From contig DOSG01000008.1 of the NCBI GenBank assembly GCA_003514055.1, forward strand, positions 121,229-185,228: a stretch of 64,000 bases of DNA. The letters run 5' to 3'. Numbering within the stretch: the first letter of the stretch is position 1; the number at the start of each line of letters is the position of its first letter. The notes beneath the pieces are model-generated. The model worked only from the letters and a program-made list of their open reading frames with translations. It was not told the origin of the DNA and searched no databases. Shown piece by piece: positions 41,098-52,197 of the stretch. A program made the position numbers and the translations under genes. The stretch is from Candidatus Yanofskybacteria bacterium (lineage in GTDB: Bacteria; Patescibacteriota; Minisyncoccia; 2-02-FULL-40-12; GWA2-44-9).

Positions 41098-41179
41098 ATA
41101 TGCGTATTAATTAGCCCCAGTATTATAATACAAAAAAAGCCACAGATCAACTCTTCGTTGATTGGGCTTAAATTAGAAG

Positions 41180-41211
41180 AGGCCTGACACACGCGCTTGT
41201 GTGTCAGGCCT
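41180..41211. terminator. perfect 12-bp GC-rich hairpin (GGCCTGACACAC-GCGCTT-GTGTGTCAGGCC)
   Basis: Read directly; lies between the GC-rich ORF stop (41234) and the lon start; partial T run on the minus side. Confidence 0.4.
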
Positions 41212-41233
41212 CGATGGCCTGCCGGCCGATCGG

Positions 41234-41650
41234 CTACTCGCCGAACAGAGCGGCGACCGCCGTGGCCTGGACCTTCTCGAGCTCGGCTGCAGCAGCGGTC
41301 CGATTGGCATTCGCAATCATGGCCTGTTGCTGCAGGATCTCGTTCTGCGCAGCCTTGGACCGTTCACCAGCCGCCACGATCTGGTTGTCCCGCTCCGTAA
41401 GGAGCGCCTTCAGGTCGGCGCCGACCCGACTCTGAATCTCCATCATCGCGAGGACGCCCATCGCGATCTTCGCGCCCAGGCCAGCCTGATCACCGAGCTG
41501 CTGGAACATGGGTGCGGCTTTGGCGGCCTGCGCCAGGCCGAATGTCTTGACCGGCACCGGCTTGGGTGCCGGAGGCGGAGGCGTCAGCTTCCGCATGACG
41601 ATGAACGTGATGACCGCAACGACCACTGCGACGAGAAAGTAGTTGACCAT
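41234..41650 (-). CDS. GC-rich membrane-anchored protein with Pro-rich linker and helical domain
   Basis: From the internal ATG: MVNYFLVAVVVAVITFIVM (TM), PPPPAPKPVPVK linker, helical C-domain. GGGAGA SD 6 nt upstream. GC about 62 %. Confidence 0.4.
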   Translation of the reverse strand: MVNYFLVAVVVAVITFIVMRKLTPPPPAPKPVPVKTFGLAQAAKAAPMFQQLGDQAGLGAKIAMGVLAMMEIQSRVGADLKALLTERDNQIVAAGERSKAAQNEILQQQAMIANANRTAAAAELEKVQATAVAALFGE

Positions 41651-41736
41651 CTTGATTCTCCCTGAGCCATTTCTTCTTTCCCCACCGACTGGCTCTACGT
41701 CGGGTGGGGCTGGACACAACAACGAACTGTACTTAC

Positions 41737-41765
41737 ATTATACCGCATACGCGCTGAAAAGTCAA
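41737..41765 (-). promoter_or_regulatory. near-consensus sigma70 promoter TTGACT-17-TATAAT driving the GC-rich ORF
   Basis: Minus strand reads ATGCTTGACTTTTCAGCGCGTATGCGGTATAATGTAAG; 5'-UTR hairpin follows. Confidence 0.45.
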
Positions 41766-47866: not shown

Positions 47867-47904
47867 ACCTTAAAGATACCATTGAAATTTGAATAAAAAA
47901 AGAG

Positions 47905-47935
47905 GGCCCGCGCACGCGCGGGACCCTTCGACGGA
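47905..47935 (-). terminator. intrinsic terminator of the GC-rich small ORF
   Basis: GGGCCCGCGC-ACGC-GCGGGACCC imperfect hairpin followed on the minus strand by CTTTTTTTATTC. Confidence 0.45.
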
Positions 47936-48121
47936 CTACTTGCCGTCCTTGATAGCAGCACCGACAATCGTAGCCGCAGCAATCAAGGAAGTCATGATCG
48001 ATAGCAGCGCCATCGTCGCAGCCATCCAGGGTACATTAGCCCAGAGAAAGGCACCGGTCGCCAGAGCGAAACCAGCTGACGCCCTCGCCGCACGATAAAC
48101 CTGATCTACGCTCACGTTCAT
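47936..48121 (-). CDS. GC-rich small two-TM membrane protein
   Basis: From the internal ATG: MNVSVDQVYRAARASAGFALATGAFLWANVPWMAATMALLSIMTSLIAAATIVGAAIKDGK; GGAGGGGGG SD upstream. Confidence 0.35.
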   Translation of the reverse strand: MNVSVDQVYRAARASAGFALATGAFLWANVPWMAATMALLSIMTSLIAAATIVGAAIKDGK

Positions 48122-48148
48122 GTCTCTACCCCCCCCTCCAGTATTCAT

Positions 48149-48177
48149 ACCATAACATATTTCACATATAAGGTCAA
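48149..48177 (-). promoter_or_regulatory. sigma70-like promoter TTGACC-17-TATGGT for the GC-rich small ORF, abutting the uvrB start codon
   Basis: Minus strand reads TTGACCTTATATGTGAAATATGTTATGGTATGAATACTGGAGGGGGG. Confidence 0.4.
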
Positions 48178-50202: not shown

Positions 50203-50220
50203 TTGTGCCCAAGTGGCTAT

Positions 50221-50249
50221 TGACATCGTAGGGCCAATGTGCTATACTT
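50221..50249 (+). promoter_or_regulatory. consensus sigma70 promoter TTGACA-17-TATACT
   Basis: TTGACATCGTAGGGCCAATGTGCTATACT; AAGGAGG SD at about 50317-50323, 6 nt before the ATG at 50330. Confidence 0.5.
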
Positions 50250-50329
50250 GACACAAGCTAGGAGTGGCTAGTGGACAGCGCCCGATATTGGGAATGCCAC
50301 AAGGTCGCTCTTTCACAAGGAGGCAGGAC

Positions 50330-50722
50330 ATGGGATGGACCAAGTCGAAGAAGTCATCGTTCAAGGCCGGCGACCGCGTCACCGTCCCCGGTGGGTACGG
50401 AGACGGCACAATCACCGAGTTCGAGGATGGCTGTGGCGGCGGAGAGCTGGCGAGCGTGAAGCTCGACAGCGGCCGACAGGAGTGGGTCGGCGTCAGCCGC
50501 CTCAAGGCGGCCGGACCGAAGAAGTCCACGGACAAGAAGGCCGACGACTACGAGCTCTACGTCCGTGACGTCATCAGAACGTCCGACGGCCGGCTCGGCC
50601 TGATCAAGGACTTCACGTACGGCGGGTGCAGCGACCAGTACGCCGTCGTGATGTTCCACGACGGTCAGACCCGCGAGTACAACGTCTCGCGGGTGACGCT
50701 GGTGGCGGCCGCAACGCGGTAA
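50330..50722 (+). CDS. GC-rich cytoplasmic protein with two KOW/Tudor-like beta repeats
   Basis: MGWTKSKKSSFKAGDRVTVPGGYGDGTITEF... and ...YELYVRDVIRTSDGRLGLIKDF...YAVVMFHDGQTREY. Start chosen at the SD-preceded internal ATG; the track ORF begins at an upstream GTG. Confidence 0.45.
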   Translation: MGWTKSKKSSFKAGDRVTVPGGYGDGTITEFEDGCGGGELASVKLDSGRQEWVGVSRLKAAGPKKSTDKKADDYELYVRDVIRTSDGRLGLIKDFTYGGCSDQYAVVMFHDGQTREYNVSRVTLVAAATR

Positions 50723-50779
50723 CGCCCCCCACCTCGCCCACCCAGGGCCGCCTCATCGACGAGATGAGGCGGCCCCCAA

Positions 50780-50824
50780 CCTCGCACAGAGTCAGCGATG
50801 ACTTATCCACGTGCGAGGTTTTTA
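50780..50824 (+). terminator. intrinsic terminator (CCTCGCAC...GTGCGAGG + TTTTT), preceded by a second 12-bp hairpin at about 50745-50775
   Basis: Read directly. Confidence 0.55.
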
Positions 50825-50917
50825 AATACAATAAATCGGTTAGTAACTCTTAATACTACGCTTACAATGGTAAATAACATCATAAAAACCCGACATTTTT
50901 GATTAATACCCAACGAC

Positions 50918-50946
50918 TTGATTTATCCTAGATTATATGTTATAAT
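50918..50946 (+). promoter_or_regulatory. consensus sigma70 promoter TTGATT-17-TATAAT
   Basis: TTGATTTATCCTAGATTATATGTTATAAT; AGAGAGGAG SD ending 4 nt before the ATG at 51005. Confidence 0.5.
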
Positions 50947-51004
50947 ACACGTACGGAGTGACCTTTTACAACCATTGCCGATACAACGTTAAGAGAGGAG
51001 ACAG

Positions 51005-51571
51005 ATGAGACAAGTACTCGTCGATAACTGTGGCTGGTTTTCGTTGTTGGCCTTCTTCGTAATGGGGTGGGCCTACTACATGACGGCCACGATCCTCATG
51101 CGAGGATCGCTGTTCATCGGCCTCCGCGGCCGAATCGACCAGATAGCCGAGAGCGGCTCGTGGCTCTGCACGAAGATTCGCGAGATGCTGGGATGCCTGA
51201 TGTGCACGGCCACCGAGGCGGCCATCTGGACACTCGGCATCGCGACTCTCGGACTCGGCCTGTGGTACAACGTTCCCGACGCGATCATCGGCGCGGCGCT
51301 CGAGAAAATCGGGGCGATTGGCTCCGATAAAATGATCGCGCTGCCGTGGTACGCAAGCGTGGCCATTATGGCCGGCGTATCGTTCGCCCTATCCCTGGCC
51401 GTCGCTGGTCAGGCCTGGGGCATCAAGTGCATCGTTGAGCATCAAGAGGTCAAGTTCTTGGAGCTTCGGAAAGGATCCCGAGCTCGAGAGATTGAACTCC
51501 TCGAGAGGATCAGCGAGCTCGAGAGAACTCCTGGAAAGAGTTGCGAGAAGTACGAATACGATCTGTCCTAA
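51005..51571 (+). CDS. GC-rich polytopic membrane protein with C-terminal charged coiled tail
   Basis: 4-5 TM (FSLLAFFVMGWAYYMTATIL...), then EIELLERISELERTPGK; 188 aa. Confidence 0.45.
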   Translation: MRQVLVDNCGWFSLLAFFVMGWAYYMTATILMRGSLFIGLRGRIDQIAESGSWLCTKIREMLGCLMCTATEAAIWTLGIATLGLGLWYNVPDAIIGAALEKIGAIGSDKMIALPWYASVAIMAGVSFALSLAVAGQAWGIKCIVEHQEVKFLELRKGSRAREIELLERISELERTPGKSCEKYEYDLS

Positions 51572-51584
51572 CGAAGGAGCTGAA

Positions 51585-51926
51585 ATGAAAGTTAAAGCCA
51601 TTATTCCGTTCGCTGAGTTCGCGACAATCTATGCCGCCCTACCTCGTTCCGAGAATTGCGCAACCGTAAGGTGCGCATTCAGCAAGACAACCTGCCACGT
51701 TCGGGAGGCTCGCGAAGCCTGCCGCGAGTGGTGGAAGCGCACCAACGACGGTGCGCCAGGATTCTCGAATTACGAGGCCACGTTCCAGAATGCGATCGAT
51801 GCCGAGAACGCCATCTACTGGTGTTTCCGGACTGGCGACATGGAACCGGCCCAAAAGGCATACGATCTTTTGACCGACGAGCTTCGTGCTCGATTCAGCG
51901 GTCAGCTCCGGATGTCCGGTAGCTAG
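51585..51926 (+). CDS. GC-rich small Cys-containing protein
   Basis: MKVKAIIPFAEF...ENCATVRCAFSKTTCHVREAREACREWW (4 Cys, possible metal site); AAGGAG SD 6 nt upstream; 13 nt after the previous stop (operon). Confidence 0.4.
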   Translation: MKVKAIIPFAEFATIYAALPRSENCATVRCAFSKTTCHVREAREACREWWKRTNDGAPGFSNYEATFQNAIDAENAIYWCFRTGDMEPAQKAYDLLTDELRARFSGQLRMSGS

Positions 51927-51954
51927 ATCTGGCATTCACCACCGGCATAGCCGG

Positions 51955-51986
51955 GGCCGCCCCTCAAAAGGCGGCTTTTATTTTTA
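51955..51986 (+). terminator. intrinsic terminator (GCCGCC-CCTCAAAA-GGCGGC + TTTTATTTTT)
   Basis: Read directly. Confidence 0.55.
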
Positions 51987-52039
51987 TACTTGCAAATATC
52001 AATAAAATGTATTAAAGTATGTAAATCAATTTACATATA

Positions 52040-52197
52040 AACAGCGATTCCAATCATTGTTTCAGCTATTAATCGGCAGCCCCTTCGGGGGCCGATAGCT
52101 GATCACTGAATCCTTTTAAAGAAGCAAATCTCTCGGAAGCTTGAACGGGACTTCTTTAAAATGATTCAGCTAACAATAATTTGAACCTTAGCCGAGC
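52040..52197 (+). promoter_or_regulatory. structured leader upstream of rpsT (possible autoregulatory element)
   Basis: UUCG hairpin ATCGGCAGCCCC-TTCG-GGGGCCGAT; long helix TGAATCCTTTTAAAGAAG / CTTCTTTAAAATGATTCA. Confidence 0.3.

What the first reader, a model, noticed from the sequence alone, without database searches (positions are those of the whole stretch)
50205..51990. Two adjacent GC-rich transcription units after uvrB: tandem-KOW-like protein; membrane protein plus 4-Cys small protein
Unit 1 runs from a perfect TTGACA-17-TATACT promoter through AAGGAGG to a 130-aa protein with two KOW/Tudor-like repeats, then a double-hairpin terminator. Unit 2 runs from TTGATT-17-TATAAT through AGAGGAG to a 188-aa polytopic membrane protein with an E/R-rich coiled tail, then 13 nt and AAGGAG before a 113-aa protein with a CxxxxC...C...C cluster, ending in a classic terminator. 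Together they make 1.8 kb of about 62 % GC DNA with E. coli-like signals, between uvrB and the rpsT leader.
Basis: partly seen in the sequence, partly recalled or inferred. Interest (0 to 1): 0.7.

Follow-up and report, generated by a model that had tools for sequence, protein, structure and literature searches.

The report
GC-rich orphan gene cassettes in Yanofskybacteria
Two self-contained, unusually GC-rich gene units sit between uvrB and rpsT of a tiny symbiotic bacterium; they encode three real, conserved proteins of unknown function, and they are old residents of this spot rather than a fresh insertion or an assembly error.

Summary
The window is a Candidatus Yanofskybacteria (CPR/Patescibacteria) chromosome of about 42 % GC. 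Unit 1 (50220-50823) and unit 2 (50918-51988) each have a near-consensus extended -10 promoter, a Shine-Dalgarno site, GC3-rich coding sequence (0.89, 0.76, 0.66 against 0.37-0.51 in host genes) and a hairpin terminator.

The locus is assembled identically in more than 50 data sets, so it is not chimeric. It is not recent either: sister Yanofskybacteria carry GC-rich orthologues at the same place, with dN/dS of 0.17-0.32.

- **P1** models as two SH3-like (Tudor/KOW-like) barrels. It has only four or five relatives in 1.8 billion representative proteins.
- **P2 and P3** are an obligate pair, adjacent in every locus where downstream sequence exists and fused twice. They occur at different chromosomal sites in several low-GC CPR lineages, GC-richer than their flanks. 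They also occur in 50-61 % GC contigs, where their composition is native.
- **P2** has three predicted membrane-spanning segments, a near-invariant CxxC motif and a coiled-coil tail. Its membrane part is remotely related to a small membrane protein on a T4-like phage contig.
- **P3** models as a helical bundle.

No curated family matches any of the three. Best reading: old, horizontally spread accessory cassettes of unknown function. Interest is moderate.

The parts
50220..50248 (+). Promoter of unit 1: TTGACA, 17 nt, TATACT, with TG upstream of the -10 hexamer
   Evidence: 11 of 12 matches, one of the five best sites in the 64-kb window.
50257..50312 (+). Long hairpin in the 5' leader of the P1 mRNA, followed by TTTCACA and the Shine-Dalgarno site AAGGAGG (50317-50323)
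   Evidence: MFE -25.4 kcal/mol, z only -1.0. The sister genome L017 has a hairpin of different sequence at the same position, followed by (A/C)TT(T/C)ACAG, and uses it in two cassettes. Function is inferred (mRNA 5' stabiliser or regulatory), not shown.
50330..50722 (+). P1, 130 aa: two SH3-like (Tudor/KOW-like) beta-barrels joined by a Lys-rich linker. GC 65 %, GC3 0.89.
   Evidence: dN/dS 0.32 against the orthologue in L017. Only 5 hits in 1.84 billion representative proteins, two of them the query's own cluster and a truncated variant. No family match.
50745..50823 (+). Double-hairpin 3' end of unit 1: hairpin 50745-50775 without a T-run, then hairpin 50780-50818 followed by TTTTT
   Evidence: Both hairpins are conserved in L017, and 2 pairs of the first show compensatory changes.
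50826..50917 (.). AT-rich spacer between the two units (50826-50990 is 32 % GC). In the sister genome an IS200/IS605 element sits here.
   Evidence: The Y1 transposase is in L006.
50918..50946 (+). Promoter of unit 2: TTGATT, 17 nt, TATAAT, with TG extension. Shine-Dalgarno AGAGGAG at 50994-51000.
   Evidence: A TTGACA-like hexamer, about 14 nt, then TGnTATAAT-like lies upstream of essentially all 14 P2 homologues examined; 9 have an exact TTGACA.
51005..51571 (+). P2, 188 aa: three predicted membrane-spanning segments (about 12-32, 61-82, 110-144). Near-invariant motif MLGCLMCTATE..W (C67 invariant, C64 in at least 90 % of members) lying in the second hydrophobic segment. C-terminal coiled coil and acidic (Y/F)D-L tail.
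   Evidence: dN/dS 0.17. No Pfam hit for any of 21 members. The membrane domain matches a 114-aa protein on a T4-like phage contig (hhalign 98 %, E 1e-13).
51585..51926 (+). P3, 113 aa: soluble helical bundle. Conserved C-x4-C-x7-C, WW..N..PGF..Y and F motifs. Obligate partner of P2.
   Evidence: AF2 pLDDT 89, pTM 0.83. No significant structural neighbour. Adjacent to P2 in every locus with downstream sequence and fused to it in P0020 and P0024.
51937..51988 (+). Terminator block of unit 2: CACCACCGGCATAGCCGG, then GGGGCCGCCCC..GGCGGCTTTTATTTTT
   Evidence: Nearly identical in L005. It is also found after an unrelated small ORF (cassette A) in L017. It occurs once in the window.

Best explanation
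The region holds two old accessory gene cassettes in a Candidatus Yanofskybacteria chromosome. Each is a complete expression unit: an extended -10 sigma-70 promoter, a leader, a Shine-Dalgarno site, coding sequence and an intrinsic terminator.

The coding parts evolved in, or are repeatedly drawn from, a GC-richer gene pool. That pool is most plausibly GC-richer Patescibacteria and their phages. The cassettes were already in place between uvrB and rpsT before at least three Yanofskybacteria lineages diverged. All three genes are translated and under purifying selection.

- **Unit 1** makes P1, a small cytoplasmic protein of two SH3-like barrels. I infer it acts as a binding adaptor for a nucleic acid or a protein partner.
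- **Unit 2** makes a two-protein membrane module. P2 is anchored by three helices and carries a near-invariant CxxC motif in its second hydrophobic segment. Its coiled-coil stalk would dimerise and present the helical, Cys-bearing P3. In some lineages P3 is simply fused to the end of that stalk.

I infer a membrane-associated thiol/redox or metal-dependent sensing or exclusion function, inherited from a family of small phage membrane proteins.

Shown: gene reality, linkage of P2 and P3, age, composition, patchy distribution, and the folds of P1 and P3. Inferred: origin by transfer, topology, complex formation and biochemical role.
For: Composition:
- GC3 is 0.89, 0.76 and 0.67 against 0.37-0.51 in host genes.
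- The proteins are also GARP-rich and FYMINK-poor (0.28-0.32 and 0.21-0.26, against 0.20-0.26 and 0.28-0.40 in host proteins). The bias is therefore not only synonymous.

Real genes:
- dN/dS is 0.32, 0.17 and 0.19 against sister orthologues.
- P2 has 25 homologues at 43-74 % identity.

Age and synteny:
- The P1 orthologue follows uvrB in L017-L019.
- P2-P3 precede rpsT in L005-L008 and L038.
- L037 shows the P1 terminator running straight into the P2 promoter.
- Host orthologues are 58-86 % identical and saturated at synonymous sites.

Not an artefact: the same context is found in more than 50 index blocks of assemblies.

Mobility or patchiness of P2-P3:
- Between rpoB and trmD (L011, L014, L015, L043).
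- Beside a KTI12-like kinase gene (L009).
- Beside an HpaII restriction-modification system (L013).
- Beside lexA (L016 and the P0021 contig).
- In the low-GC hosts the module is always GC-richer than its flanks.
- Composition is native in 50-61 % GC contigs L016, L035, L036 and L044-L046, which are possible donor lineages.

Linkage of P2 and P3: adjacent or fused wherever testable.

Phage link: hhalign gives 98 % probability to a protein lying between SbcD-like and SbcC-like genes and near 2OG-Fe(II) oxygenase genes on contig L047.

Literature: gene transfer in Patescibacteria is reported to be mostly between Patescibacteria (PMC12455944).
Against: - No donor has been identified. No P1, P2 or P3 relative was found in 185,579 species-representative genomes, in IMG/VR or in INPHARED phages.
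- No integrase, tRNA gene or flanking direct repeat marks the units.
- GC3 has stayed at 0.66-0.89 in both sister lineages despite about 0.7-0.9 synonymous substitutions per site. This is hard to square with simple decay toward host composition, although the polarised counts are too few to decide (S to W versus W to S: 2 v 2 and 6 v 2).
- The functional proposals for P1 and P2-P3 rest on fold, motifs and topology only. No family, defence-system or solved-structure match exists.
- The taxonomic identity of the GC-rich contigs was not established.
Confidence: 0.6

Rival explanations
1. The genes are native and vertically inherited, and their GC-richness is actively maintained. Candidate forces are selection on mRNA stability, structure or expression, or GC-biased gene conversion at recombination-prone intergenic slots. 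Under this view the GC-richness is not a trace of foreign origin.
For: - GC3 is about 0.65-0.78 in most deeply diverged P2 genes whatever the host GC (0.33-0.61).
- There is no clear decay in the window lineage.
- Synonymous divergence of P1 and P2 is lower than in host genes.
- The GC-rich stretch coincides with the transcribed part, while the promoters and the spacer are AT-rich.
- No donor was found.
Against: - The amino-acid composition is GC-type as well.
- The module sits at unrelated loci in different lineages.
- Some members have largely lost the bias: L009 has GC3 0.49, L036 and L039 0.57, L041 0.55.
- Other islets in the window differ between sister genomes.
Confidence: 0.2
2. The units belong to a cassette-exchange system. 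Circular or linear cassettes carrying standard leader and terminator modules would integrate by homologous (Campbell-type) recombination at those shared modules, which would explain several interchangeable GC-rich islets per genome.
For: - In L017 two unrelated ORFs (cassette A and P1) have the same roughly 100-nt promoter plus leader as direct repeats flanking the inserted segment.
- Cassette A ends with the same terminator block as the P3 unit.
- In the window a 163-bp, 99 % identical direct repeat brackets another small GC-rich ORF.
- Three of the five best promoter matches in the window head islets.
Against: - Within this window the leader and terminator of units 1 and 2 are single-copy.
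- No recombinase is associated.
- Duplication followed by divergence explains the L017 pattern equally well.
- Only two examples exist.
Confidence: 0.1
3. P2-P3 is a DNA-damage (SOS) induced membrane module. It would be analogous to the small membrane division inhibitors that are transcribed divergently from lexA in other bacteria. Its position beside uvrB and near ftsW would then be meaningful.
For: - lexA lies divergently and immediately upstream of P2-P3 in L016 and in the P0021 contig.
- In the window the module is about 0.8 kb downstream of uvrB, a classical SOS gene in model bacteria, and about 0.6 kb from ftsW.
- L039 has a perfect palindrome AGAACA-TCG-TGTTCT in its leader.
Against: - lexA adjacency is seen in one clade only.
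- No operator-like motif is shared across 14 P2 upstream regions.
- The LexA box of CPR bacteria is unknown.
- Other lineages place the module next to unrelated genes.
Confidence: 0.08
4. Artefact: a chimeric assembly, contaminating GC-rich DNA, or spurious ORFs in a GC-rich structured RNA.
For: There is an abrupt GC change, and long alternative-frame ORFs are typical of GC-rich DNA.
Against: - The junctions are identical in JGI, NCBI, ENA and Logan assemblies.
- Orthologues occur at the same locus in sister species.
- There is strong codon-position periodicity and dN/dS well below 1.
- There is no Rfam match.
Confidence: 0.02

Closest known systems
Phage 'morons' (autonomous promoter-gene-terminator units of deviant composition, known from lambdoid prophages)
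   Same: Each unit is a self-sufficient transcription unit inserted between two unrelated genes. Its base composition differs sharply from its neighbours, and it encodes a small accessory protein, often membrane-bound.
   Different: The neighbours here are housekeeping genes (uvrB, rpsT), not prophage genes. There is no prophage in the vicinity. The units are GC-richer, not AT-richer, than the host. They have been conserved in place across species.
DUF1360 (PF07098) and phrog_781-type small phage and bacterial membrane proteins
   Same: The P2 membrane domain shares the layout (first helix, G-S-I-F..R loop, L-G-C-x-M-C-T-x-x-W helix, G-x-x-W-A-I helix) with a 114-aa protein on a T4-like phage contig (hhalign 98 %). 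That protein has sub-threshold hits to DUF1360 (E 0.16) and phrog_781 (E 0.0012).
   Different: Neither P2 nor any of 21 family members reaches any Pfam threshold. P2 adds a coiled-coil stalk and an obligate partner, P3. Neither family has a known function.
Tandem Tudor and tandem KOW modules (53BP1, SETDB1, SAWADEE; Spt5 KOW repeats)
   Same: Two consecutive five-stranded SH3-like barrels in about 130 residues. These are the best Foldseek matches.
   Different: TM-scores are only 0.30-0.38, identity is 10-22 %, and there is no Pfam KOW, Tudor or DUF1918 match. All named matches are eukaryotic chromatin or transcription proteins. The relative orientation of the two barrels is not defined (pTM 0.50).
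Horizontally transferred genes and genomic islands in Patescibacteria (PMC12455944)
   Same: Compositionally deviant accessory genes. That paper reports that most transfers occur between Patescibacteria, which fits the presence of P2-P3 in GC-richer relatives.
   Different: These are sub-kilobase islets without mobility genes, made of orphan proteins, and they predate speciation. I found no paper describing them.
SOS-induced small membrane division inhibitors transcribed divergently from lexA (YneA, SosA, ChiZ, SidA; from general knowledge)
   Same: A small membrane protein with its own strong promoter. It is lexA-adjacent in one clade and uvrB-adjacent here.
   Different: There is no sequence or domain similarity, no LexA box was identified, and a second protein (P3) is always required. 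This is a lead only.

Membership tests
KOW (PF00467) / DUF1918 (PF08940) / Tudor families, for P1 | Significant match to the family profile HMM | tested here: not met
   hmmscan against Pfam at E <= 1 returns only DUF7141 at E 0.21, far below its cutoff. NCBIfam, PHROGs and PADLOC give none or insignificant hits.
KOW / Tudor (SH3-like barrel superfold), for P1 | Five-stranded SH3-like beta-barrel, here in tandem | tested here: met
   The AF2 model has pLDDT 86.4 and two blocks of 4-5 strands. Foldseek finds 14 PDB matches at E <= 1e-3, all tandem KOW, Tudor or SAWADEE.
Tudor 'reader' domains, for P1 | Aromatic cage that binds methylated Lys or Arg | not tested
   The model was not inspected residue by residue. 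No ligand information is available.
DUF1360 (PF07098), for P2 | Profile match above the gathering score (21 bits) | tested here: not met
   0 of 21 family members hit PF07098 at E <= 1.
DUF1360-like superfamily, for P2 | Remote homology through an intermediate sequence | tested here: inconclusive
   The P2 profile against the L047 114-aa protein gives hhalign 98.1 %, E 1.1e-13. That protein against PF07098 gives only E 0.16, 12.4 bits.
Cys4 zinc-binding small proteins, for P3 | Four conserved metal-ligand Cys or His | tested here: not met
   In 8 relatives only C30 is invariant. C25 and C38 are present in 7 of 8, and C46 and H39 are not conserved. The model is an all-helical bundle, not a zinc ribbon.
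Phage moron | Own promoter and terminator flanking the gene, with deviant composition | tested here: met
Phage moron | Located between genes of a prophage or phage | tested here: not met
   The neighbours are ruvA, uvrB, rpsT, ftsW and mraY. No phage match for P1 or P2.
Horizontally acquired genomic islet | Atypical composition, plus patchy distribution at non-homologous loci in different lineages | tested here: met
   for composition. for loci. This holds for P2-P3 only; P1 is known only from this locus.
Horizontally acquired genomic islet | Identifiable donor lineage, or mobility signatures (integrase, tRNA, flanking repeats) | tested here: inconclusive
   Contigs of 50-61 % GC carry compositionally native copies, but their taxonomy is unknown. 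There is no integrase, tRNA gene or repeat at the unit borders.
Integron gene cassette | Promoterless ORF followed by an attC site, in an array next to intI | tested here: not met
   Each unit has its own promoter. There is no integrase nearby. The shared 3' block is a canonical terminator.
SOS regulon member | LexA operator in the promoter | not testable with these tools
   The LexA box of CPR bacteria is unknown. No motif is shared among 14 upstream regions. lexA adjacency is found in one clade only.
Known anti-phage defence systems (PADLOC) | Match to any PADLOC model | tested here: not met
   No hit at E <= 1 for P1, P2, P3 or the fused P0020.

The most novel reading that the evidence does not exclude
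The GC-rich islets of Yanofskybacteria (five in this 64-kb window) are a distinct class of genes. Their GC-rich codon usage would be actively maintained over speciation timescales, and they would be driven by the strongest promoters in the genome.

Candidate explanations for the maintained codon usage are:
- The islets are continually re-supplied by cassette exchange from a GC-rich mobile pool.
- Their transcripts or products act at the interface with the GC-richer host cell. Yanofskybacteria are reported parasites of Methanothrix (PMC10936435).

In this reading, P2-P3 and P1 would be components of host interaction or phage exclusion rather than fading relics of gene transfer.
Probability: 0.15. 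Interest if true: 0.7.

Novelty: new member of a known kind. Interest (0 to 1): 0.4.

Why it matters
CPR/Patescibacteria genomes are small, and roughly half of their genes have no known function.

This work defines a previously undescribed, obligately paired membrane module (P2-P3). It recurs in several Paceibacteria-like lineages and has a remote link to small phage membrane proteins. It also defines a near-orphan tandem-barrel protein (P1). Both have clear expression signals and evidence of selection, which makes them concrete targets for structural and interaction studies.

The second point of interest is evolutionary. Sub-kilobase islets keep a GC3 of about 0.7-0.9 inside a 42 % GC genome, although the surrounding genes are saturated at synonymous sites. 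If this persistence is confirmed genome-wide, it would bear on how fast foreign genes drift toward host composition, and on whether selection or gene conversion can hold local composition in reduced genomes.

Tried and rejected
**Searches that found no match**
- Pfam, PHROGs, NCBIfam and PADLOC scans of P1, P2, P3, the fused P0020 and three other islet proteins gave nothing significant.
- PDB sequence profiles for the three families gave nothing below E 0.02.
- tblastn of P1 and P2 against 50,697 phage records gave no match.
- IMG/VR scans with the P2 and P1 profiles gave none. The P3 alignment was too variable to scan.
- A scan of GTDB species-representative genomes with the P2 profile gave none.
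- The 20-nt terminator core found only chance hits in unrelated GC-rich genomes.
- The afdb50 library was unavailable.

**Ideas tested and dropped**
- The L017 leader motif is absent from the window.
- I suspected a tmRNA gene with an island in its 3' end at 15135-16264. Neither ARAGORN nor Rfam supports this.
- I looked for a shared operator (LexA box) upstream of 14 P2 homologues. Only the promoter hexamers are shared.
- My first argument was that GC3 persistence excludes decay toward host composition. A rough two-state calculation of my own (not a tool result) shows that decay from a very GC-rich ancestor cannot be excluded, except for P1 in the window lineage. The polarised counts are too small to decide.

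**Technical limits**
- MAFFT misaligned P3 against P2 when all rows were pooled, so the fused protein was not modelled.
Full report
**What the window is.** Exact-sequence look-ups place the locus on contigs of Candidatus Yanofskybacteria. These include GCA_001795995.1 MGLH01000010, JGI 3300025095 and the GW2011_GWE2_40_11 / GWF1_44 genomes. There the three proteins are deposited as 'hypothetical protein'. The window averages 41.8 % GC. The gene order is lon, RNase J, murE-like, femAB, ruvA, uvrB, [finding], rpsT, ftsW, mraY.

**Check of the observation.**
- **Unit 1:** TTGACA-17-TATACT with TG extension (50220-50248); a roughly 80-nt leader that folds into a long hairpin (50257-50312); AAGGAGG; P1 (50330-50722, 130 aa); two hairpins, the second followed by a T-run (50745-50823).
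- **Unit 2:** TTGATT-17-TATAAT with TG (50918-50946); AGAGGAG; P2 (51005-51571, 188 aa); 13 nt; P3 (51585-51926, 113 aa); terminator (51953-51988).

- The whole span is 56.8 % GC, not 62 %. It consists of two GC-rich blocks (62.6 % and 57.2 %) separated by a 32 % GC spacer.
- Only three of the four Cys of P3 recur in relatives.

The anomaly is far beyond chance. GC3 is 0.89, 0.76 and 0.67, against 0.37-0.51 in eight host genes. The proteins are enriched in Gly/Ala/Arg/Pro and depleted in Phe/Tyr/Met/Ile/Asn/Lys.

**Not an artefact, and not recent.** P1 and P2 are each indexed in 52-56 blocks of independent assemblies, always in the same context. Sister genomes carry orthologues at the same place:
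- A 135-aa protein, 56 % identical to P1, follows uvrB in L017-L019.
- Proteins 73 % and 64 % identical to P2 and P3 lie directly upstream of rpsT in L005-L008 and L038.
- A third lineage (L037; P2 77 % identical) shows the end of the P1 terminator running into the P2 promoter.
- In L005, L006 and L017 an IS200/IS605 element has landed in the AT-rich spacer, which is why those assemblies break there.

Host orthologues in these genomes are 58-86 % identical, and their synonymous sites are saturated. P1, P2 and P3 have dN/dS of 0.32, 0.17 and 0.19. They are therefore real genes under purifying selection that predate the split of these lineages. The orthologues are GC-rich too: GC3 is 0.73, 0.72 and 0.72.

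**P1.** The word-indexed search of 5.8 billion proteins found only the protein itself. A full HMMER pass over 1.84 billion representatives found five proteins:
- two are the query's own 90 % cluster and a truncated variant of it;
- two are orthologue-like proteins at 56 % and 42 % identity;
- one is a 169-aa protein at 38 % identity that is encoded elsewhere in the same genome.

An AlphaFold2 model built from four sequences has pLDDT 86. It shows two beta-barrels joined by a Lys-rich linker. Foldseek against the PDB returns tandem KOW (Spt5), tandem Tudor (SETDB1, 53BP1) and SAWADEE modules at E about 1e-4, with TM-scores of only 0.30-0.38. No profile library recognises it. The 'tandem KOW/Tudor-like' description is therefore right for the fold and unsupported for family membership.

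**P2 and P3 are one module.**
- P2 has 25 relatives at 43-74 % identity and 13 further loci in JGI metagenomes.
- Near-invariant motifs are G-W-x-Y-Y-M-V-A-T-I-L-M-x-G-S-I-F, E-M-L-G-C-L-M-C-T-A-T-E-x-x-x-W-T-L-G and F-A-L-S-L-A-V-A-G-E-A-W-x-I-K. These are followed by a heptad-like charged stretch and a terminal (Y/F)-D-L.
- Hydropathy gives three membrane-spanning segments. Applying the positive-inside rule, I infer that the tail is cytoplasmic and that the CxxC sits near the cytoplasmic end of the second segment.
- A P3 homologue follows P2 in every locus that has downstream sequence: the window, L005, L009, L013, L014, L016, L035 and L037-L043, L045 and L046. The two are fused into one polypeptide in P0020 (L011, L012) and P0024 (L036).
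- The P3 model (pLDDT 89, pTM 0.83) is a helical bundle without significant structural neighbours.
- No Pfam model matches any of the 21 P2 members.

One distant relative is informative. It is a 114-aa protein on the AT-rich contig L047, lying between SbcD-like and SbcC-like genes and near 2OG-Fe(II) oxygenase genes, which is a T4-like phage context. It aligns with the P2 membrane domain at 98 % hhalign probability. It gives sub-threshold hits to DUF1360 and phrog_781, and neither family has a known function.

**Distribution and composition of the module.** P2-P3 occupies unrelated sites in different lineages:
- upstream of rpsT in Yanofskybacteria;
- between rpoB and trmD (L011, L014, L015, L043);
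- next to a KTI12-like kinase gene (L009);
- next to an HpaII restriction-modification system (L013);
- divergent from lexA (L016 and the P0021 contig).

In hosts of 33-41 % GC, the module is 44-60 % GC. In contigs of 50-61 % GC (L016, L035, L036, L044-L046) it matches its surroundings. Every copy has its own TTGACA-like plus TGnTATAAT-like promoter and its own terminator. The simplest reading is spread by gene transfer among Patescibacteria from GC-richer lineages, followed by vertical descent within clades. A published survey reports that most transfers in this phylum are internal (PMC12455944). No donor is proven. The species-representative genomes, IMG/VR and the phage collection hold no relative.

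**What remains odd.** GC3 has not visibly decayed.
- At four-fold sites within conserved residues, 43-71 % differ between the sister orthologues, yet GC3 is 0.66-0.89 on both sides.
- A rough two-state calculation of my own, not a tool result, shows that slow decay from an extremely GC-rich ancestor cannot be excluded for P2 and P3. It fits poorly for P1 in the window lineage.
- Polarised counts (S to W versus W to S: 2 v 2 in the window lineage, 6 v 2 in L005) are too few to decide.

This keeps alive the rival that composition is actively maintained.

**The units are part of a wider pattern.** The window has three further GC-rich islets: 14707-16550, 41130-41720 and 47900-48150. Each has a small orphan ORF, a promoter and a terminator. 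Sister and other CPR contigs have their own islets (L005 4796-5500; L011 7500-8700). Three of the five best promoter matches in 64 kb head such islets.

In L017, two unrelated ORFs share an identical promoter plus leader, present as direct repeats. One of the two also borrows the terminator of the P3 unit. In the window, a 163-bp repeat brackets another islet ORF. These hints of modular cassette formation are recorded as a rival explanation, not a conclusion.

**Verdict.** The finding is real and correctly described in its anatomy. It consists of two old, autonomous accessory cassettes with foreign composition.
- P1 is a near-orphan tandem SH3-like protein.
- P2-P3 is an undescribed but recurrent two-part membrane module, with a remote link to a small phage membrane protein.
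- Function is unknown. My best guess is a membrane-anchored thiol- or metal-dependent sensing or exclusion complex for P2-P3, and a binding adaptor for P1. Both guesses are inference from fold and motifs only.

The finding is a new member of a known kind, namely horizontally spread orphan gene islets. Interest is moderate, mainly because of the conserved module and the persistence of GC-rich codon usage.

Noticed in passing
window 14707-16550: This is the largest GC-rich islet. A perfect TTGACA-16-TATAAT promoter with TG (12 of 12) on the minus strand (16546 to 16519) points into about 1.5 kb of GC-rich sequence. The only convincing ORF there is an 81-aa signal-peptide, Cys-rich protein (15777-16019, minus strand, GC3 0.84). 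A 163-bp, 99 % identical direct repeat (15589-15751 and 16102-16264) brackets that ORF. There is a bidirectional terminator at 14979-15043. No Rfam or tmRNA hit. It may include a long non-coding RNA or a duplicated insertion site.
   Followed up: partly
window 14707-14890: A hairpin-dense GC-rich stretch lies immediately after the 594-aa membrane glycosyltransferase-like ORF (12922-14706). It is closed by GGCCCAAGCCTAC...GTAGGCTTGGGCC. It looks like a structured RNA or a complex terminator. No Rfam match.
   Followed up: no
window 41130-41765: A GC-rich islet between lon and the RNase J gene. It holds a 138-aa protein with an N-terminal membrane helix (41237-41650, minus strand, GC3 0.81), a TTGACT-17-TATAAT promoter (41765 to 41737) and a strong terminator. 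No family match.
   Followed up: partly
window 47900-48177: A GC-rich islet between ruvA and uvrB. It holds a 61-aa two-helix membrane protein (47939-48121, minus strand) with a GGAGGGGGG ribosome-binding site and a GC-hairpin terminator. The sister genome L017 instead has an unrelated AT-rich 107-aa membrane protein gene at this site, so this slot is variable.
   Followed up: partly
L017 7290-8000: The sister genome has an extra cassette between uvrB and the P1 orthologue. It has the same promoter and 45-nt leader hairpin as the P1 unit, a 42-aa ORF, and the same terminator block as the P3 unit. An 87-aa helix-turn-helix-like gene follows on the opposite strand. The arrangement looks like a Campbell-type insertion or a module duplication.
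   Followed up: partly
L005 7346-7800, L006 614-1042, L017 8500-8646: An IS200/IS605 (Y1 transposase) element is inserted right after the P1 terminator, in the AT-rich spacer. It breaks the sister-genome assemblies at this point.
   Followed up: partly
L016 6739-7166 and the P0021 contig: lexA lies divergently and immediately upstream of P2-P3, with a glutaredoxin gene a few genes downstream, in one 54 % GC lineage. L016 carries frameshifts that split lexA and P2, probably long-read errors.
   Followed up: partly
L047 1929-6474: This is a T4-like phage contig. A 114-aa protein resembling the P2 membrane domain is encoded between the SbcD-like and SbcC-like recombination nuclease genes. It has no match in the INPHARED phage collection.
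   Followed up: partly
protein P0032/P0039 (169 aa, same genome, locus tag UW46_C0008G0020): A distant paralogue of P1 with two similar barrel repeats is encoded elsewhere in the same Yanofskybacteria genome. Its context and composition were not examined.
   Followed up: no
window 52044-52196: The rpsT leader in the window contains about 150 nt, including a strong hairpin (CAGCTATTAATCGGCAGCCCCTTCGGGGGCCGATAGCTG), that are absent from the sister genome L005. There rpsT starts about 70 nt after its promoter.
   Followed up: no
L005 4796-5500 and L011 7500-8700: Other low-GC CPR contigs have their own GC-rich islets (59-66 % GC) encoding orphan proteins of 128 and 72 aa (L005) and 366 aa (L011). 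The phenomenon is therefore not confined to this genome.
   Followed up: no
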